DNA of 42,174 nt from Methylobacter sp. (lineage in GTDB: Bacteria > Pseudomonadota > Gammaproteobacteria > Methylococcales > Methylomonadaceae): positions 1 through 42,174 of the forward strand of contig JBCKWP010000001.1 of assembly GCA_038922455.1 (NCBI GenBank). Reading direction: 5' to 3'. Shown here one piece after another: positions 6,070 to 36,590 of this stretch. Numbering within the stretch: the stretch's first letter is position 1; each line of letters opens with the position of its first letter. The notes beneath the pieces were generated by a model. That model was not told the DNA's origin. It saw nothing but the letters and a program-made list of their open reading frames with translations, and ran no database searches. The translations under genes were made by a program, and so were the position numbers.

Positions 6070-7261
6070 TTGACATCCTCTCCGCCCTAAAGGACGTGGA
6101 TTCCTACTGCTAGACGCTTATGCCCAAGCGCGAGAATGTTCCTAGCCGCATTAATATCTCTATCATGCGTAGCGCCACACTCGGCGCAAGTCCATTCTCT
6201 TATTCGCAAACCTGCTCTACCTTTCGGACTACTTTGGCTAATCAAGCCACAGCACGAACAAGTTTGGGTAGTGTAGTTTTCGTTGACTTCTAAAAACACG
6301 CCTTGCGTCGCTATCGACTTATATTCAAGTTGTGTTTTCAGCATGAATCAGCCAGCGTCTAAAACGGATTTAGCCATTTTAGTTTTAGCGAGTTTCTTAC
6401 TGCTGATGTTGCCAACGACTATTAAACTGTTTTCTTTTACAATTTTGTGGGTGAATTTGTGTATTGCGTCCTTGCGGGTGTTCTTTATCTTAGCGTGGAT
6501 GGCTCTAACGCGCTTTTTGTCTTTAGCACGTTGTGCTTTTCCAAGTTTAAATTCTAAATTTCTGTAGCAATCCTGGCGCTCCAAGGTGTCGCCATTTGAG
6601 CAGGTCGCGGTTGTTTTTAAGCCTAAATCAATCCCGACTTGTCCGCCTTGAGCCGCTTGTGCCACCGCTTCAACATGAATAACGATATTGAAATACCAGC
6701 GACCGCGTGAATCTTGACTCAAGCAGCCTGAGCGAAAATCAAACTGACTCAAGCCGTAACTATCCCAGCACTTGAAATAATGCCCTGCATACCTTATTTG
6801 ACCGTTAACCCATTTAGCCGCGCCCGATTTGAATGGAACCCAGCCTAAGGCTTTTTTGCTACCCCCAGAACACCGCCAATTCAGCTTGTTCTTTTTGAAC
6901 TGTTTACGCGCTTTAGCATGAATGGCAATGGTTTCTTGAAACGCCGTCGAGTCGATAATCATGCCGCGTTCTTTGCGGATGACCTTTAACTCTTTCATCA
7001 GGTCAAAAGCCGAGGTACCAAAGTTCATGTAACCGACTTCTGGAACAGCTACCCACGATAATTCAGCGGAATCCGCATTAGCTGCGTTCCATACTTGATT
7101 AACATCAAAGGCCATACGATTTAACACGCTGGCGTGTTTATCGCGGACTCTGACTGAAAGGGTTTTTGTTATCGGTTTCATGACTGGAATATTAACATTA
7201 AGAAAAATCAACAGCACCCTTACATCCCCCACCTGAAGGAAGGGGCTTTACGGGCTTATTG
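6070..7261 (-). mobile_element. IS200/IS605-family tnpB-only element, copy 1 (1192 bp)
   Basis: Minus strand: TTAAC|CAATAAGCCCGTAAAG-hairpin ... GAAT-hairpin-GGATGTCAA; same length and ends as copy at 14580-15771; no TIR or TSD. Confidence 0.9.
6087..7181 (-). pseudogene. tnpB: TnpB RNA-guided endonuclease with nonsense mutation
   Basis: TGG>TGA at 6348-6350 (DAG*F versus DAGWF in copy 2) splits it into the 294-aa and 85-aa ORFs; GIDLG, CxxC..CxxC and DRDINAA present. Confidence 0.9.
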
Positions 7262-7281: not shown

Positions 7282-8835
7282 CTATGCATATAGACTCAAT
7301 AAACCTTTACCAACAACAGCCCCATCATGTTCAATTTTTTCTAGGGTGTTGGTAACGCCGTCAATACCTTGCTCACTATTTTCTGGTGTTTTAGAAAAAG
7401 CTTGAGATTGTGATCGCCCTTGATCTGACGTAGAGTTCTGGGAAATATTTACATTGACCAGATTGAGCTGCTGAGTAGCCAGCATTTCCCGTAACTTGGG
7501 AATGGAGGCTTCAAGCATTTCTTTGACTTCCACATGCTGCGCTGTAAACATAATAGTTGCTTGATCTTTATTAACATCAATACGAATTGATATGGGTCCA
7601 AGATGCTCTGGATTCAGCTTGATTTCTGCTGCCGATATGGCTTTGTTATTCATCCATATAATCTGTTCACCCAGATCTTTGCTCCAGCCGGGATGCGTTA
7701 AAGGTCTTGTTATTGCCGGACTATCTGTTCTGCTGTCAATCAGCCTATGGGGTGTAAGCATATCTGCGGTAACTCCAGGTGCCATTTTTTCTATACCGGA
7801 AATGGAGGTCTGCTTTTCAAGCAACGCCGTTTTTTCAGCGGGATCTGTATTTTCCATGGCTTGTAAATTAAAACCCTGTCCATTCTGAATTGACTGGCGA
7901 AGAACAGTTTCTTTTTGCAGAAAATCGCCTGAGATAACATCCTCCTCACCCAGCATATTCAATTGAGCCTCATCAGGCAAAGGCGTTGCCAACGACGGTC
8001 CATTTAAAGCCATTGCCGCACTCATGTTTTGTGCTGTTGCCAATTCATCAGGCGTAAGGGATTTTAGCGCGTCAGTTAACGTAAGCAAAGTGGCTTCCTG
8101 GGCAACATCCTCACCCAGCATGTTCAATTTAGCCTCTTCAGGCAAAGGCCTTGCCAACGACGGTCCATTTACAGCCATTGCCGCACCCATGTTTTGTGCT
8201 GTTGCCAATTCATCAGACGTAAGGGATTTTAGCGCGTCAGTTACCGTAAGCAAAGTGGCTTCCTGGGCAACATCCTTGTTAAGGTCACTAGCAGCATTTT
8301 CTTGGTATGACAGGGGCAAATGCTCGTCGAGCCAAGCGGCAAGCTCTTCTTCGCCACCCTTCTGTTTCAGTAAGTCGCCTATGTCATGCAGGGTGTTTAT
8401 GGTTGGCGACTTAGTCATAATTTGCAACTGTTCGGATAATTCGATCTGGCCGTTTTCTTCTCTTAGCAAGCCTATCTGTCCCCTTAAGGCATTCGAAAAA
8501 TCTTTAGGAATGGCGCTATTTTTCGGCGAAGACTGAATCTTTACTTCAGTCGTACTCGTGCCGTGTGACACGGGTAATGAATTTACCAGAGAAGCCCGTA
8601 AAGCCCCTTCCTTTAGGTGGGGGATGTAAGGGTGCTTTTGATTTGTCTCTATAGTCATGTATAATTTTCCTGTTGGTTAGGCTGTAGCTGTCTAACTCCT
8701 GCTGTCTAGTAGTGATACGGGGACAGTGTGAAATAAGAGGAATAGCATCTTCCTCCCGTTCGGGCATGGACGGCTGTACTAAGGAATCCCCGTCATTCAT
8801 GAGGGGGTGGATGTCAAACCTTGTGTATTTATCAT
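7282..8835 (-). CDS. fliK: flagellar hook-length control protein FliK, interrupted after codon 6 by a 231-bp element; in-frame alternative ATG at 8658
   Basis: C-terminal AEIKLNPEHLGPI...LEASIPKLREML...GLLSLYA domain; removing 8587-8817 gives MINTQG|VNSLPVS with GGAG RBS upstream of 8835. Confidence 0.88.
7945..8274 (-). repeat. 2 x 165-bp (55-aa) tandem duplication in fliK
   Basis: DVAQEATLLT...NMLGE twice; CTCACCCAGCAT at 7945 and 8110, GGCAACATCC ending at 8110 and 8275. Confidence 0.95.
8587..8817 (+). mobile_element. non-autonomous IS605-type mini-element (PATE-like), family A copy 1, 231 bp
   Basis: TTTAC|CAGAGAAGCCCGTAAAGCCCC... left end and ...GGAATCCCCGTC...GGATGTCAA right end shared with the tnpB elements; near-identical copy at 36098-36330. 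Confidence 0.9.
8638..8665 (+). promoter_or_regulatory. sigma70-like promoter inside mini-element
   Basis: TTGATT-N16-TATAAT; conserved in the second copy (36250-36277, minus strand). Confidence 0.65.
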
Positions 8836-14579: not shown

Positions 14580-15771
14580 TTGACATCCTCCCCGCCCTAA
14601 AGGACGGGGATTCCTACTGCTAGACGCTTATGCCCAAGCGCGAGAATATTCCTAGCCGCATTAATATCTCTATCATGCGTAGCGCCACACTCGGCGCAAG
14701 TCCATTCTCTTATTCGCAAACCTGCTCTACCTTTCGGACTACTTTGGCTAATCAAGCCACAGCACGAACAAGTTTGGGTAGTGTAGTTTTCGTTGACTTC
14801 TAAAAACACGCCTTGCGTCGCTATCGACTTATATTCGAGTTGTGTTTTCAGCATGAACCAGCCAGCGTCTAAAACGGATTTAGCCATTTTAGTTTTAGCG
14901 AGCTTCTTACTGCTGACGTTGCCAACGATTATTAAACTGTTTTCTTTTACAATTTTGTTGGTGAATTTGTGTATTGCGTCCTTGCGGGTGTTCTTTATCT
15001 TGGCGTGAATCGCTTTAACGCGCTGTTTGTCTTTAGCACGTTGGGCTTTGCCCAGTTTAAATTCTAGGTTTCTGTAGCAATCCTGGCGTTCCAAGGTGTC
15101 GCCATTTGAGCAGGTTGCTGTTGTTTTCAAGCCTAAATCAATCCCAACTTGTCCACCTTTAGCCGCTTGTGCCGCCGCTTCAACATGAATAACGATATTG
15201 AAATACCAGCGACCGCGTGAATCTTGACTAAAACAGCCGGAGCGAAAATCAAACTGACTCAAGCCGTAACTATCCCAGCATTTGAAATAGTGACCTGCAT
15301 AACGGATCTGACCATTAACCCATTTAGCCGCTCCTGATTTAAAAGGAACCCAGCCTAATGCGCGTCTTGCTCCACCGGAACACCGCCAATTCAGCTTGTT
15401 CTTTTTGAATTGTTTACGCGCTTTAGCATGAACAGCAATCGTTTCTTGAACTGCCGTTGAGTCGATAATCATGCCGCGTTGTTTGCGGATGACCTTTAAC
15501 TCTTTCATCAGGTCAAAAGCCGAGGTACCAAAGTTCATGTAACCGACTTCTGGAACAGCTACCCACGATAATTCAGCGGAATCCGCATTAGCTGCGTTCC
15601 ATACTTGATTAACATCAAAGGCCATACGATTTAACACGCTGGCGTGTTTATCGCGGACTCTGACTGAAAGGGTTTTTGTTATCGGTTTCATGACGGGAAT
15701 ATTAACATTAAGAAAAATCAAAAGCACCCTTACATCCCCCACCTGAAGGAATGGGCTTTACGGGCTTATTG
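14580..15771 (-). mobile_element. IS200/IS605-family tnpB-only element, copy 2 (1192 bp)
   Basis: TTTAC|CAATAAGCCCGTAAAG left end; GAATCCCCGTCCTTTAGGGCGGGGAGGATGTCAA right end. Confidence 0.92.
14597..15691 (-). CDS. tnpB: TnpB RNA-guided endonuclease (364 aa, intact ORF)
   Basis: GIDLG, VGN at the RuvC-II position, VNENYTTQTCSCC, CAECG..HDRDINAARNI; ATG 7 nt after TGnTAATAT suggests a leaderless transcript. Confidence 0.92.
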   Translation of the reverse strand: MKPITKTLSVRVRDKHASVLNRMAFDVNQVWNAANADSAELSWVAVPEVGYMNFGTSAFDLMKELKVIRKQRGMIIDSTAVQETIAVHAKARKQFKKNKLNWRCSGGARRALGWVPFKSGAAKWVNGQIRYAGHYFKCWDSYGLSQFDFRSGCFSQDSRGRWYFNIVIHVEAAAQAAKGGQVGIDLGLKTTATCSNGDTLERQDCYRNLEFKLGKAQRAKDKQRVKAIHAKIKNTRKDAIHKFTNKIVKENSLIIVGNVSSKKLAKTKMAKSVLDAGWFMLKTQLEYKSIATQGVFLEVNENYTTQTCSCCGLISQSSPKGRAGLRIREWTCAECGATHDRDINAARNILALGHKRLAVGIPVL

Positions 15772-16969: not shown

Positions 16970-17198
16970 CGGGAAACGCATAAGTCCACTTCCTTTACCT
17001 GCCTGTCGGCAGACAGCGGTGGGGGGATATAAGCATGCTCTTGATTTTTCTCGGCAGTCTAGTATAACGTACCACTGCGGCAGGGATAGCCGGTACTGCC
17101 AGTGGAGGGAATCTAAGTCGCTCGTTGAGCACAAGTCCCTCGTTCCGCAGTGTCCCTGTGAAACTGGAAGCTCCGTCCTTTAGGTTTGGGTACTTCAC
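16970..17198 (+). mobile_element. non-autonomous IS605-type mini-element, family B, with predicted omegaRNA
   Basis: Left-end hairpin, TTGATT-N16-TATAAC (17041-17068), right end GAAGCTCCGTCCTTTAGG...TTCAC; GTGAA(17158-17162)/TTCAC(17194-17198) complementarity; left boundary uncertain by a few nt. Confidence 0.75.
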
Positions 17199-17729: not shown

Positions 17730-17936
17730 CGGAAAAGCGCCGAGATACCCAGCCATTTAGGAAGAAAGGAGTGCTTTTGATTTTCGTTGTACATCATCGT
17801 GTGTAATATGCACGAAATAAGTTGAACAACTGTAGGAGATTCTGGTTAAATATCAGCGTCCAATTGTCAGTGAATCAGGCATTTCTCAATAGCGATGTTG
17901 GGAATCCCTTGTCCTTTAGGCAGGGGATACTGTCAA
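17730..17936 (+). mobile_element. degenerate IS605-type mini-element
   Basis: GTGCTTTTGATTTT block (17771-17784) shared with the left-end region; ends GGAATCCCTTGTCCTTTAGGCAGGGGATACTGTCAA. Confidence 0.6.
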
Positions 17937-35030: not shown

Positions 35031-35116
35031 AATGTAAGCGGTTCGTTTTGATATACATTAATAACGTACTGTCAATGTGTGTACATTTGTGCTATTTTAA
35101 AGGTAAAGGAGATATA

Positions 35117-35389
35117 ATGATGATAAGCAAACGTACAGACAGAATAGATCTTAGAGTTCATCCAAATGCCAAAGAAGCGCTTCAGGCAGCCGCCACATTG
35201 AGGCATAAATCCGTCAGTGAGTTTATTTTGGATAGCGCATTGGGCGCTGCTGATGAGATTTTGGCAGATCGGCGATATTTTGGCTTGAATGCCGAACATT
35301 GGGCTGCTTTTCAAGCAGCCCTCGATGCGCCACTGCGTCCTTTACCAAGACTTAAAAAGCTGATGCAGGAACCGGGGATTTTTGATTGA
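35117..35389 (+). CDS. DUF1778 (TacA/AtaR-like) antitoxin
   Basis: RIDLRV...AA.LRHKSVSEFI RHH-like region; AAGGAG RBS; overlaps GNAT gene. Confidence 0.88.
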   Translation: MMISKRTDRIDLRVHPNAKEALQAAATLRHKSVSEFILDSALGAADEILADRRYFGLNAEHWAAFQAALDAPLRPLPRLKKLMQEPGIFD

Positions 35390-35901
35390 CTACAAAACAG
35401 GAAAACCGACCGCGTATAGAAAAACTTCAACGCTTGCATGACGTTGATGTCTTCGATTGTGGCCAGGGTAACCTGAACCAGTATTTGACGCGTTATGCCC
35501 TGATGAGCCAACGCGCAGACGGGGCGCAAAGCTATGTTGGGGTAAACGGAAAGGAAATCATGGGATACTACACACTTGCTGTGGGTCATGTTGCTTATGA
35601 AGATGCACCTGAACGATTGACTAAAGGGTTATCTCGTAATTCCGTTCCTGTCATGTTATTGGCACGACTTGCAGTTGACCTTAGTTGGCAGCGCAAAGGC
35701 GTTGGAGCCGGTCTATTGCGGGATGCCATGCAGCGTACCGTACAGGTTGCCGACATTGCAGGCCTTCGTGCCTTTCTAGTTCATGCCAAGGACGATAGAG
35801 CCAAAGCCTTTTATGAGCATTTAGATTTTATACCTTCACTAACTGATCCTTACCACTTGTTCATTCTGCTCAAGGACATTCGAAAAATAATGAATGAGTG
35901 A
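35386..35901 (+). CDS. GNAT acetyltransferase toxin (TacT/AtaT-like)
   Basis: FDCG..LN.YL, LLARLAVD..WQRKGVG and VHAKDD.A..FY motifs. Confidence 0.9.
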   Translation: MTTKQENRPRIEKLQRLHDVDVFDCGQGNLNQYLTRYALMSQRADGAQSYVGVNGKEIMGYYTLAVGHVAYEDAPERLTKGLSRNSVPVMLLARLAVDLSWQRKGVGAGLLRDAMQRTVQVADIAGLRAFLVHAKDDRAKAFYEHLDFIPSLTDPYHLFILLKDIRKIMNE

Positions 35902-36037: not shown

Positions 36038-36590
36038 TCAATGGCTTGTAGCCGAAATATCAATTTCAAAATCGCCAATTAGTTTTTTTATAACTTGTTG
36101 ACATCCACCCCCTCCTAAAGGACGGGGATTCCTTAGTACAGCCGTCCATGCCCGAACGGGAGAAAGATGCTATTCCTCTTATTTCACACTGTCCCCGTAT
36201 CACTACTAGACAGCAGGAGTTAGGCAGCTACAGCCCAACCAACAGGAAAATTATACATGACTACGGAGATAAATCAAAAGCACCCTTACATCCCCCACCT
36301 GAAGGAGAAGGGGCTTTACGGGCTTCTCTGGTAAAATTCATACTTGCCAATGAAGTTAATAGGCTACCCTGCAACAGGCGAAAAACGCAGTATTTCTTCG
36401 ACCTTGTCTGTGTCTACGGTTCGATAATGATGATGAAGCGCCGACAAAATGGTCGCATTATAGGAAATCACCGGATTGGCAATGAGTCGGATGGATTCGG
36501 CATTAATATCGAGTTCAATTTTAGGCTTTCCATTGAGCATTCTGCCGCCGCTGACTTTGGCAATGGTGGCGCTTAACGGGTGATACGATT
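36038..36590 (-). pseudogene. Tn3-family transposase C-terminal remnant, interrupted by mini-element
   Basis: Reads ...ESIRLIANPVISYNATILS...EEILRFSPVAG*PINFIGKYEFY|element|QVIKKLIGDFEIDISATSH*. Confidence 0.65.
36098..36330 (-). mobile_element. non-autonomous IS605-type mini-element, family A copy 2, 233 bp, with predicted omegaRNA
   Basis: Reverse complement near-identical to 8587-8817; preceded by TTTAC, ends GGATGTCAA. Confidence 0.9.

What the first reader, a model, noticed from the sequence alone, without database searches (positions are those of the whole stretch)
8587..8817. 231-bp mobile element looks like a naturally miniaturised stand-alone TnpB omegaRNA gene
Seen: left end, then TTGATT-N16-TATAAT, then ~146 nt keeping the ordered blocks of the tnpB 3' end (TGCTGT, AGTAGT, AATAAGAG, GGGCAT, AGGAATCCCCGTC, GGATGTCAA). 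The stems are kept but shortened. GAGAAT/ATTCTC, enclosing the Zn-finger-coding loop in tnpB, becomes GAGGAA/TTCCTC with a short loop. CGCTT-GGGCAT-AAGCG becomes CCGTTC-GGGCAT-GGACGG (compensatory). Loop GGCAU can pair with terminal AUGUC (pseudoknot). Differences between the two copies also preserve pairing (GTCA/TGA versus GTCC/GGA; GTTAGGC/GTCTAAC versus GTTGGGC/GCCTAAC). Established: omegaRNAs overlap the tnpB 3' end and contain such a pseudoknot, and PATE-like derivatives are known. Inference: selection has acted on RNA structure rather than simple deletion, giving a compact guide scaffold for the 364-aa TnpB.
Basis: partly seen in the sequence, partly recalled or inferred. Interest (0 to 1): 0.85.

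Follow-up and report, generated by a model that had tools for sequence, protein, structure and literature searches.

The report
Gene-less transposon with rebuilt TnpB guide
A 231-base jumping element with no gene carries a promoter-like motif and a shortened, structurally conserved version of the guide-RNA scaffold of the DNA-cutting enzyme TnpB, and likely borrows TnpB made elsewhere in the genome to guard its own insertion site; elements of this kind are already described.

Summary
The element is real. It spans 8587-8817 with a second copy at 36098-36330, has TTAC/TCAA ends, and two public DNA runs hold the exact empty site. It sits after codon 6 of fliK. It belongs to a family of at least 32 distinct gene-less copies, mostly in Methylococcaceae. 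Four internal stems keep pairing while their sequences turn over: 14 of 41 pairs change on both sides, and G-U pairs outnumber A-C 39 to 2 on the sense strand. All 7 carriers among 43 genus genomes also encode this TnpB clade, which has an intact rearranged (TnpB2-type) active site. The omegaRNA reading is therefore well supported, but expression, loading and cleavage are untested. Corrections: it is an old separate lineage, not a trimmed copy of the neighbouring tnpB; the TGCTGT and AGTAGT blocks are not conserved; the pseudoknot has only one-sided support. Gene-less elements with omegaRNAs used in trans are already stated in print (Meers 2023; Altae-Tran 2023). This scan noted the kind before on other DNA (18 notes, one a look-alike 231-bp Methylobacter element). 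What is added is the documented remodelling of the scaffold. New variant of a known kind; interest 0.4.

The parts
8583..8586 (+). Target tetranucleotide TTAC (TTTAC), outside the element; predicted TAM
   Evidence: Sequence; empty-site joint 8586/8818
8587..8817 (+). Gene-less IS605-group mini element, copy 1 (231 bp)
8600..8622 (+). Left end: AAAG guide tetranucleotide and subterminal hairpin (IS608-like layout; IS608 rules recalled)
   Evidence: positions 6-62 are 94.7% identical to the left ends of both tnpB elements
8638..8665 (+). Sigma70-type promoter-like site TTGATT-N16-TATAAT; RNA start predicted at about 8671-8672
   Evidence: 17 of 32 family copies score 10 or more of 12 against about 0.2% of shuffles
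8677..8695 (+). Stem S1, 5' hairpin with a conserved 7-nt loop; origin unresolved
   Evidence: 95 of 96 pairs kept over 16 stem types; origin tests
8701..8727 (+). Stem S2, bulged hairpin; takes the place of the branched stem of the tnpB 3' end
8737..8755 (+). Stem S3; a 7-nt loop stands where tnpB has a 54-nt loop coding for the second zinc knuckle and the RuvC-III aspartate
   Evidence: 66 of 66 pairs over 11 stem types; tnpB counterpart
8756..8773 (+). Stem S4 with GGGCAU loop, predicted to pair with AUGUC at 8811-8815 (pseudoknot)
   Evidence: 59 of 60 pairs over 10 stem types; pseudoknot tally
8784..8817 (+). Right end: GAAT guide tetranucleotide, hairpin 8788-8807, TCAA end
8818..8833 (+). 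Predicted guide (host flank, fliK 5' end read antisense); matches the empty site behind TTAC
   Evidence: Inference from TnpB biology; no TAM-flanked target with up to 4 mismatches in 16 nt found elsewhere in G000
36098..36330 (-). Copy 2 of the mini element (233 bp), behind TTTAC
14580..15771 (-). tnpB-only element with intact 364-aa TnpB (ORF 14597-15691; D185, G257, E301, D342); candidate partner nuclease
6070..7261 (-). Second tnpB-only element, with a stop at codon 278
7282..8835 (-). fliK, interrupted after codon 6 by copy 1
   Evidence: (weak FliK match, E 1e-15, below the family cut-off)

Best explanation
This is a gene-less IS605-group mini-transposon whose interior is a rebuilt, structure-conserved version of the RNA scaffold found at the 3' end of one tnpB clade, and it likely expresses a guide RNA that would be loaded in trans by that TnpB to cut element-free copies of its own site. 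Shown: scarless insertion behind TTAC, spread to many sites, conserved stems, conserved promoter-like motif, co-occurrence with the TnpB clade. Inferred steps: (1) a TnpA encoded elsewhere moves it through the two end hairpins; (2) RNA starts near 8671, folds into S1-S2-S3-S4, the right-end hairpin and the pseudoknot, and runs into the flank, which is the guide; (3) the 364-aa TnpB binds it and cleaves TTAC-flanked empty alleles, so that repair from the filled sister copy restores the element, as described for TnpB elements. Freed from coding, the scaffold core shrank from about 200 nt to 121 nt (147 nt with S1).
For: Exact empty site in 2 of 4 DNA runs laid. On a plain MAFFT alignment of 20 copies 98.2% of cells pair and 14 of 41 pairs change on both sides; 0 of 500 shuffles reach this and slid registers pair 45-50%. 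RNAalifold finds the same stems unaided. Tree-aware count on 29 of 33 copies: 69 of 74 change events in S1, S3, S4 keep pairing; 5 break it, against a minimum of 20 in 5000 re-pairings. 39 G-U against 2 A-C pairs on the sense strand in 36 stem types. The same S3-S4-right-end architecture is seen in 30 tnpB 3' ends, and the mini model hits the window's tnpB end at 52.7 bits. 6 of 75 ends not picked by pattern turn the pseudoknot's G-U pair into A-U. Carriers: 7 of 43 genus genomes, all among the 8 with this TnpB clade; 5 of 151 family genomes, all among 15 with the clade. Catalytic D185, E301, D342 are present in 121, 120 and 119 of 121 homologues, matching the active rearranged TnpB2 type. In genome G360 the mini linker (GAGATCAG) resembles its resident tnpB (GGGTCAG), whereas Methylococcaceae minis and tnpBs have AARTAAG/AATAAG (one contrast only).
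Against: No transcript, RNP or cleavage shown. The single sequence folds no better than shuffles and its MFE differs from the consensus. The pseudoknot has no two-sided change, and its 3' strand is also fixed by transposase recognition; 5 of 75 ends break it, 2 of those probably spurious matches. Co-occurrence with tnpB would also follow from a shared TnpA, and carriers are kin. 15 of 32 copies score below 10 of 12 for the promoter. No IS200-type TnpA over the cut-off was found in G000, which is 62% complete. No Rfam family reaches its threshold; HgcC scores 19 bits against 50. The proposed closing helix (8697-8700 with 8782-8785) loses a pair in five copies of one subfamily.
Confidence: 0.75

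Rival explanations
1. The RNA is made and binds TnpB but works as a decoy or modulator that lowers cutting, not as a productive guide.
For: The scaffold is remodelled at its 5' half and carries S1 with a conserved unpaired loop (TG[TA][TA]GC in 25 of 29) of no assigned role. RNA regions that inhibit TnpB cleavage are known (PMC10278001, passages).
Against: The parts next to the guide (S3, S4, pseudoknot, right-end hairpin, TCAA boundary) are the best kept. Every copy has a different flank behind TTAC, as a self-protecting guide needs.
Confidence: 0.1
2. The internal hairpins are kept for the single-stranded DNA transposition intermediate, with no RNA role.
For: IS200/IS605 elements move as top-strand ssDNA, which is the same strand as the predicted RNA, so strand asymmetry alone does not separate the two. 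No transcript was shown.
Against: The kept stems are those of the tnpB 3' RNA. 39 G-U/G-T pairs are tolerated. A promoter-like site is held at a fixed 6-8 nt before the scaffold. From recalled IS608 work, TnpA needs only the two end hairpins.
Confidence: 0.1
3. It is a passive internal deletion of the neighbouring tnpB element, and the stems are leftovers.
For: Left and right ends closely match the tnpB elements of the window (94.7% over 57 nt; 83% over 36 nt).
Against: The interior is about 73-77% identical to minis of other species but barely alignable to the neighbouring tnpB (52 of 1000 shuffles as good for the core). Stems were rewritten with pairing kept.
Confidence: 0.03

Closest known systems
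PATE-like gene-less IS200/IS605 elements of Geobacillus stearothermophilus (Meers et al., bioRxiv 10.1101/2023.03.14.532601; passages and part 1 of the supplementary-figure legends read)
   Same: Transposon ends without any gene; the paper states that PATEs often encode omegaRNAs that would need TnpB from other elements in trans.
   Different: The passages read give end similarity only, no covariation or remodelling of the scaffold. Here the scaffold is rewritten and shortened and belongs to a rearranged-RuvC TnpB clade.
Standalone omegaRNAs of OMEGA systems (as summarised in PMC10691335, passages read; the primary 2021 paper was not read)
   Same: [quoted passage not shown]
   Different: That the tested cases were IscB-type is recalled, not checked. 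No test exists for this family.
ISDra2 TnpB omegaRNA (PMC10097598, passages read)
   Same: Pseudoknot at the 3' end with -3C paired to a loop G and -2A opposite a G; removal of a flexible stem (Trim2) improved editing, which parallels the loss of the 54-nt loop here.
   Different: In ISDra2 the pseudoknot partner lies about 105 nt upstream; here it is the hairpin just before the right end. The ISDra2 scaffold (116 nt) is already shorter than this one (147 nt). Its TnpB has the canonical RuvC-II glutamate.
PATE-derived ncRNA VNG_R0052 and HgcC/RF00062 (PMC4615843, passages read)
   Same: A transcribed gene-less IS200/IS605 derivative with the right-end hairpin; the window element hits HgcC weakly (19 bits, E 0.03).
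   Different: Archaeal; described as fused left and right ends; below the Rfam threshold here.
TnpB2 with rearranged RuvC-II, e.g. TvTnpB (PMC10530073, passages read)
   Same: Glycine at RuvC-II (G257) and a conserved glutamate 44 residues on (E301).
   Different: Activity and TAM of this clade were not tested; clade membership was judged by motif, not by a tree.

Membership tests
PATE / gene-less IS200-IS605 element | Subterminal hairpins at both ends with guide tetranucleotides | tested here: met
   AAAG + hairpin 8600-8622; GAAT + hairpin 8784-8807; shared with the tnpB elements
PATE / gene-less IS200-IS605 element | Insertion 3' of a fixed tetra/pentanucleotide, no target duplication, scarless empty site | tested here: met
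   Joint 8586/8818, 0 shared letters, in runs X1 and X2; TTAC before both window copies
PATE / gene-less IS200-IS605 element | No tnpA or tnpB gene inside | tested here: met
   tblastn of the TnpB finds nothing in the element; only an antisense 84-codon frame without support
PATE / gene-less IS200-IS605 element | Mobilised in trans by a cognate TnpA | tested here: inconclusive
   None over cut-off in G000; present in 5 of 5 other carriers tested; G114 has a divergent tnpA-tnpB element with the same right end but a TTAT left end
TnpB omegaRNA (stand-alone) | Scaffold ends at the right end, guide is the variable flank | tested here: met
   Conservation stops at TCAA; flanks differ between sites
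TnpB omegaRNA (stand-alone) | Structure homologous to the RNA overlapping the tnpB 3' end, with covariation | tested here: met
   S3, S4, linker and right end; mapping of the 5' half unresolved
TnpB omegaRNA (stand-alone) | 3' pseudoknot | tested here: inconclusive
   Nearly invariant; 61 of 75 GGGCAT/ATGTC, 6 with a one-sided G-U to A-U change, 5 broken, 3 other; no two-sided change
TnpB omegaRNA (stand-alone) | Transcribed as a discrete RNA | tested here: inconclusive
   Only contigs of related copies in metatranscriptomes; one ends at 8671, one at 8691, one includes the left end
TnpB omegaRNA (stand-alone) | Forms an RNP and directs TAM-dependent cleavage | not testable with these tools
   Needs reconstitution
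TnpB2 (rearranged RuvC-II), for the partner protein | Gly/Pro at RuvC-II and an alternative conserved Glu about 45 residues on | tested here: met
   G257 in 121 of 121, E301 in 120 of 121; alignment to ISDra2 TnpB
HgcC (RF00062) or any Rfam family | Score at or above the gathering threshold | tested here: not met
   0 matches in the window; HgcC 19 bits of 50

The most novel reading that the evidence does not exclude
These minis are an old, independent lineage of naturally streamlined guide genes: released from coding for the zinc finger and RuvC-III, they rebuilt the scaffold, tune its linker to whichever TnpB2 is resident, and out-compete the tnpB-embedded guide for the nuclease. They would be hyperparasites of tnpB elements and a ready-made natural design for compact guides of rearranged-RuvC TnpBs, with at least one independent solution in Endozoicomonadaceae.
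Probability: 0.25. Interest if true: 0.65.

Novelty: new variant of a known kind. Interest (0 to 1): 0.4.

Why it matters
The idea that gene-less IS200/IS605 elements borrow TnpB in trans is stated in print, but the passages I read give no structural test for TnpB-type cases. This family supplies one: a deep alignment that shows which parts of a TnpB2 guide scaffold are kept when coding constraint is lifted (linker, S3 stem, S4 with pseudoknot loop, right-end hairpin) and which go (the 54-nt loop, the side branch). It gives a direct experiment, with an intact partner nuclease, a predicted TTAC TAM and a known empty site in fliK, and a natural template for trimming guides of this nuclease class.

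Tried and rejected
Homology of the TGCTGT and AGTAGT blocks: rejected. Single-sequence folding: not significant. Rfam: nothing at threshold for the window; weak HgcC hits for the window element and for 3 of 8 related loci. Expression: 4 of the 6 RNA runs listed were laid; all are contigs of related copies. One X11 contig ends at 8671, the predicted start, and runs 114 nt into a flank, but it is a single contig at depth 3.4; X20's starts at 8691; X21's includes the left end; X13's covers the right end only. Not counted as evidence. Origin of S1: an S1-like hairpin occurs 3 times in 34 tnpB genes with their leaders against 3.0 expected; the best case overlaps a -10 box. The 5' 28 nt of 19 mini types align best at the first zinc-knuckle codons in 80 of 456 comparisons (17.5% against 7.9% for shuffles), which is suggestive but only 3 of 19 queries exceed their own 15 shuffles. 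A kissing-loop between S1 and S2 was considered by eye and dropped because those bases pair inside S2. Plasmid collection: only left-end matches, 0 of 156 records cover 80% of the element. Class-wide search: no close mini in 150 other genomes with model R2 (only 19 candidates scored per genome). Viral contigs and the phage collection were not searched. Rows dropped before the count: 4 of 33 (L224, L226, L227, L228; truncated, chimeric or degenerate). The 99 ends were picked by a pattern that fixes GGGCAT, so loci L064-L191 were left out of the pseudoknot tally. No structure prediction was run. Literature searches found no description of this family or of scaffold remodelling in gene-less TnpB elements; subscription papers, the 2021 OMEGA paper and bioRxiv supplements were not seen and may bear on this.

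Full report
Observation. The element lies at 8587-8817 on the plus strand, with a second copy at 36098-36330 on the minus strand, 94.9% identical. Both follow TTTAC and end in TCAA. The left end has AAAG before a hairpin and the right end has GAAT before a hairpin; this is the IS608 layout as I recall it. Contigs of two of four public DNA runs join 8586 directly to 8818, skipping exactly 231 bases with no duplicated target. The joined sequence restores an open fliK start, so copy 1 interrupts fliK after codon 6. The window also holds two tnpB-only elements with nearly the same ends: 14580-15771, with an intact 364-aa ORF, and 6070-7261, with a stop at codon 278.

Family. A DNA search of 61 genomes found whole-length relatives at 73-77% identity in G026, G012, G009 and G020. 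Pattern scans added metagenome and genome copies. Covariance models found more: minis in 7 of 43 genus genomes, up to 15 matches per genome, and above 100 bits in 5 of 151 family genomes. After removing identical sequences, 32 distinct copies fitted one motif-based parse. A distant subfamily in genome G360 (L100, L141) has wholly different stem sequences but the same layout and similar 7-nt loops. Named records that hold family members are labelled Methylobacter or Methylococcales, as are close TnpB homologues, so the host is likely a related methanotroph. No close mini was found in 150 other genomes of the class.

Structure. On a sequence-only alignment of 20 copies RNAalifold predicted four internal stems, a short closing helix and the right-end hairpin. 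With the pseudoknot added, 98.2% of cells pair and 14 of 41 pairs change on both sides; none of 500 shuffles reaches this and slid registers pair 45-50%. Because relatives inflate such counts I also counted events on a tree of 29 of 33 copies: in S1, S3 and S4, 69 of 74 changes keep pairing and 5 break it, while 5000 random re-pairings of the same columns gave at least 20 breaks; 15 of 5000 reached the 5 two-sided events. This alignment was fitted to the model, but the three stems were read at fixed offsets from anchors. G-U pairs outnumber A-C pairs 39 to 2 on the sense strand. Against this, the window sequence alone folds no better than shuffles.

Relation to tnpB. Thirty tnpB 3' ends of the same clade fold into a long stem, an AATAAG linker, the GAGAAU/AUUCUC stem around a 54-nt loop, the GGGCAU hairpin and the right-end hairpin. 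The mini keeps the linker, both stems and the right end, replaces the 54-nt loop by 7 nt, and has two simple hairpins where tnpB has a branched stem. The core measures 121 nt against about 200 nt; with S1 the predicted scaffold is 147 nt. S1 has no hairpin counterpart in 34 tnpB genes (3 hits, 3.0 expected), though its sequence leans towards the first zinc-knuckle codons (80 of 456 best hits, about twice the control). Its origin stays open. The pseudoknot is nearly invariant; among 75 ends not picked by pattern, 6 change its G-U pair to A-U, 5 break it, and none changes both sides. Its register matches the ISDra2 structure at -3C and -2A (PMC10097598, passages).

Promoter and expression. TTGATT-N16-TATAAT scores 10 of 12. 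Seventeen of 32 copies score 10 or more, against about 0.2% of shuffles; one subfamily has a weaker TAATAT box like that in front of the window's tnpB, so the promoter was probably inherited from the tnpB element. Expression was not shown; the metatranscriptome contigs are inconclusive.

Partner. The TnpB matches NCBIfam guided_TnpB above its cut-off. It has glycine at RuvC-II and a glutamate 44 residues on; D185, G257, E301 and D342 are kept in 121, 121, 120 and 119 of 121 homologues. This is the rearranged TnpB2 pattern, shown active for TvTnpB (PMC10530073, passages). All 7 genus carriers are among the 8 genomes with this clade, and none of the other 35 has a mini; all 5 family carriers are among 15 of 151. 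This does not separate a shared nuclease from a shared transposase, and the carriers are kin. One contrast points to the nuclease: in G360 both the mini and the resident tnpB have a TCAG linker in place of TAAG. No IS200-type TnpA passed the cut-off in G000, which is 62% complete; five of five other carriers tested have one.

Mechanism. Most likely (0.75) the element is moved by a TnpA in trans, makes an RNA from about 8671 through the right end into the flank, and loads it on the TnpB made by full elements. The RNP would cut TTAC-flanked empty alleles and repair from the filled copy would restore the element, as described for TnpB elements (bioRxiv 10.1101/2023.03.14.532601, passages). Steps after the sequence analysis are inferred. 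Rivals are a decoy RNA (0.1), structure for the ssDNA intermediate only (0.1) and a passive deletion (0.03).

Known or new. Meers et al. state that PATEs often encode omegaRNAs needing TnpB in trans; PMC10691335 says standalone omegaRNAs function in trans (passages); a PATE-derived RNA is transcribed in Halobacterium (PMC4615843, passages). Processed TnpB omegaRNAs range from 79 to 466 nt (PMC10278001, passages), so 147 nt is small only relative to its own clade. Eight literature searches found no description of this family or of such remodelling. The scan's own notes hold 18 findings of this kind and one look-alike 231-bp element in a Methylobacter genome; these are not independent evidence. 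Verdict: a well-documented new variant of a known kind, interest 0.4.

Noticed in passing
window about 16970-17198 (+); G000:C28 2720-2938, C36 7520-7726, C58 7890-8034, C7 14115-14180; L019: A second family of gene-less minis with a similar left end and promoter-like box but a TCAC right end and an interior resembling the 3' end of the canonical (AVEDL) TnpB on G000:C5. Two TnpB clades each seem to have their own stand-alone guide cassettes in this genome.
   Followed up: partly
L173, L182, L086 (records labelled Endozoicomonadaceae): Gene-less elements that keep CCGAAAGG, AATAAG and the GGGCAT hairpin of the same TnpB clade but shorten the zinc-finger loop in a different way; probably an independent miniaturisation. 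The genome holds a 60%-identical TnpB.
   Followed up: partly
window 8658-8587 (-): Read antisense, the element offers an in-frame ATG at 8658 with AGGA 9 nt upstream and 24 open codons that run into fliK, which could give a FliK with a replaced N-terminus.
   Followed up: no
window 15691-15710 and 7181-7200 (-): A TGT-TAATAT extended -10-like box lies 7 nt before the tnpB ATG, suggesting a leaderless tnpB mRNA; similar spacing appears in several homologues.
   Followed up: partly
L100 and L173, 5' part of the elements: Both carry an extra 5' hairpin containing GCGATTACGC, although their guide scaffolds differ; not matched to any Rfam family at threshold for the loci scanned.
   Followed up: no
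G231 (L276, L280, L282, L285, L288): A 1.5-Mb genome with 14 weak model matches, several of them gene-less TTAT/TCAA elements of about 265 bp with another scaffold type.
   Followed up: no
window 7938-8267: A 165-nt tandem duplication (94% identical, 55 codons) inside fliK.
   Followed up: no
window 35048-35901 (+): A two-gene pair that looks like a DUF1778-type antitoxin with a GNAT acetyltransferase (resemblance recalled; the second protein had no NCBIfam match).
   Followed up: no
window 17846-17936 (+): An isolated right-end-like hairpin ending TGTCAA, repeated on several other contigs of G000.
   Followed up: no
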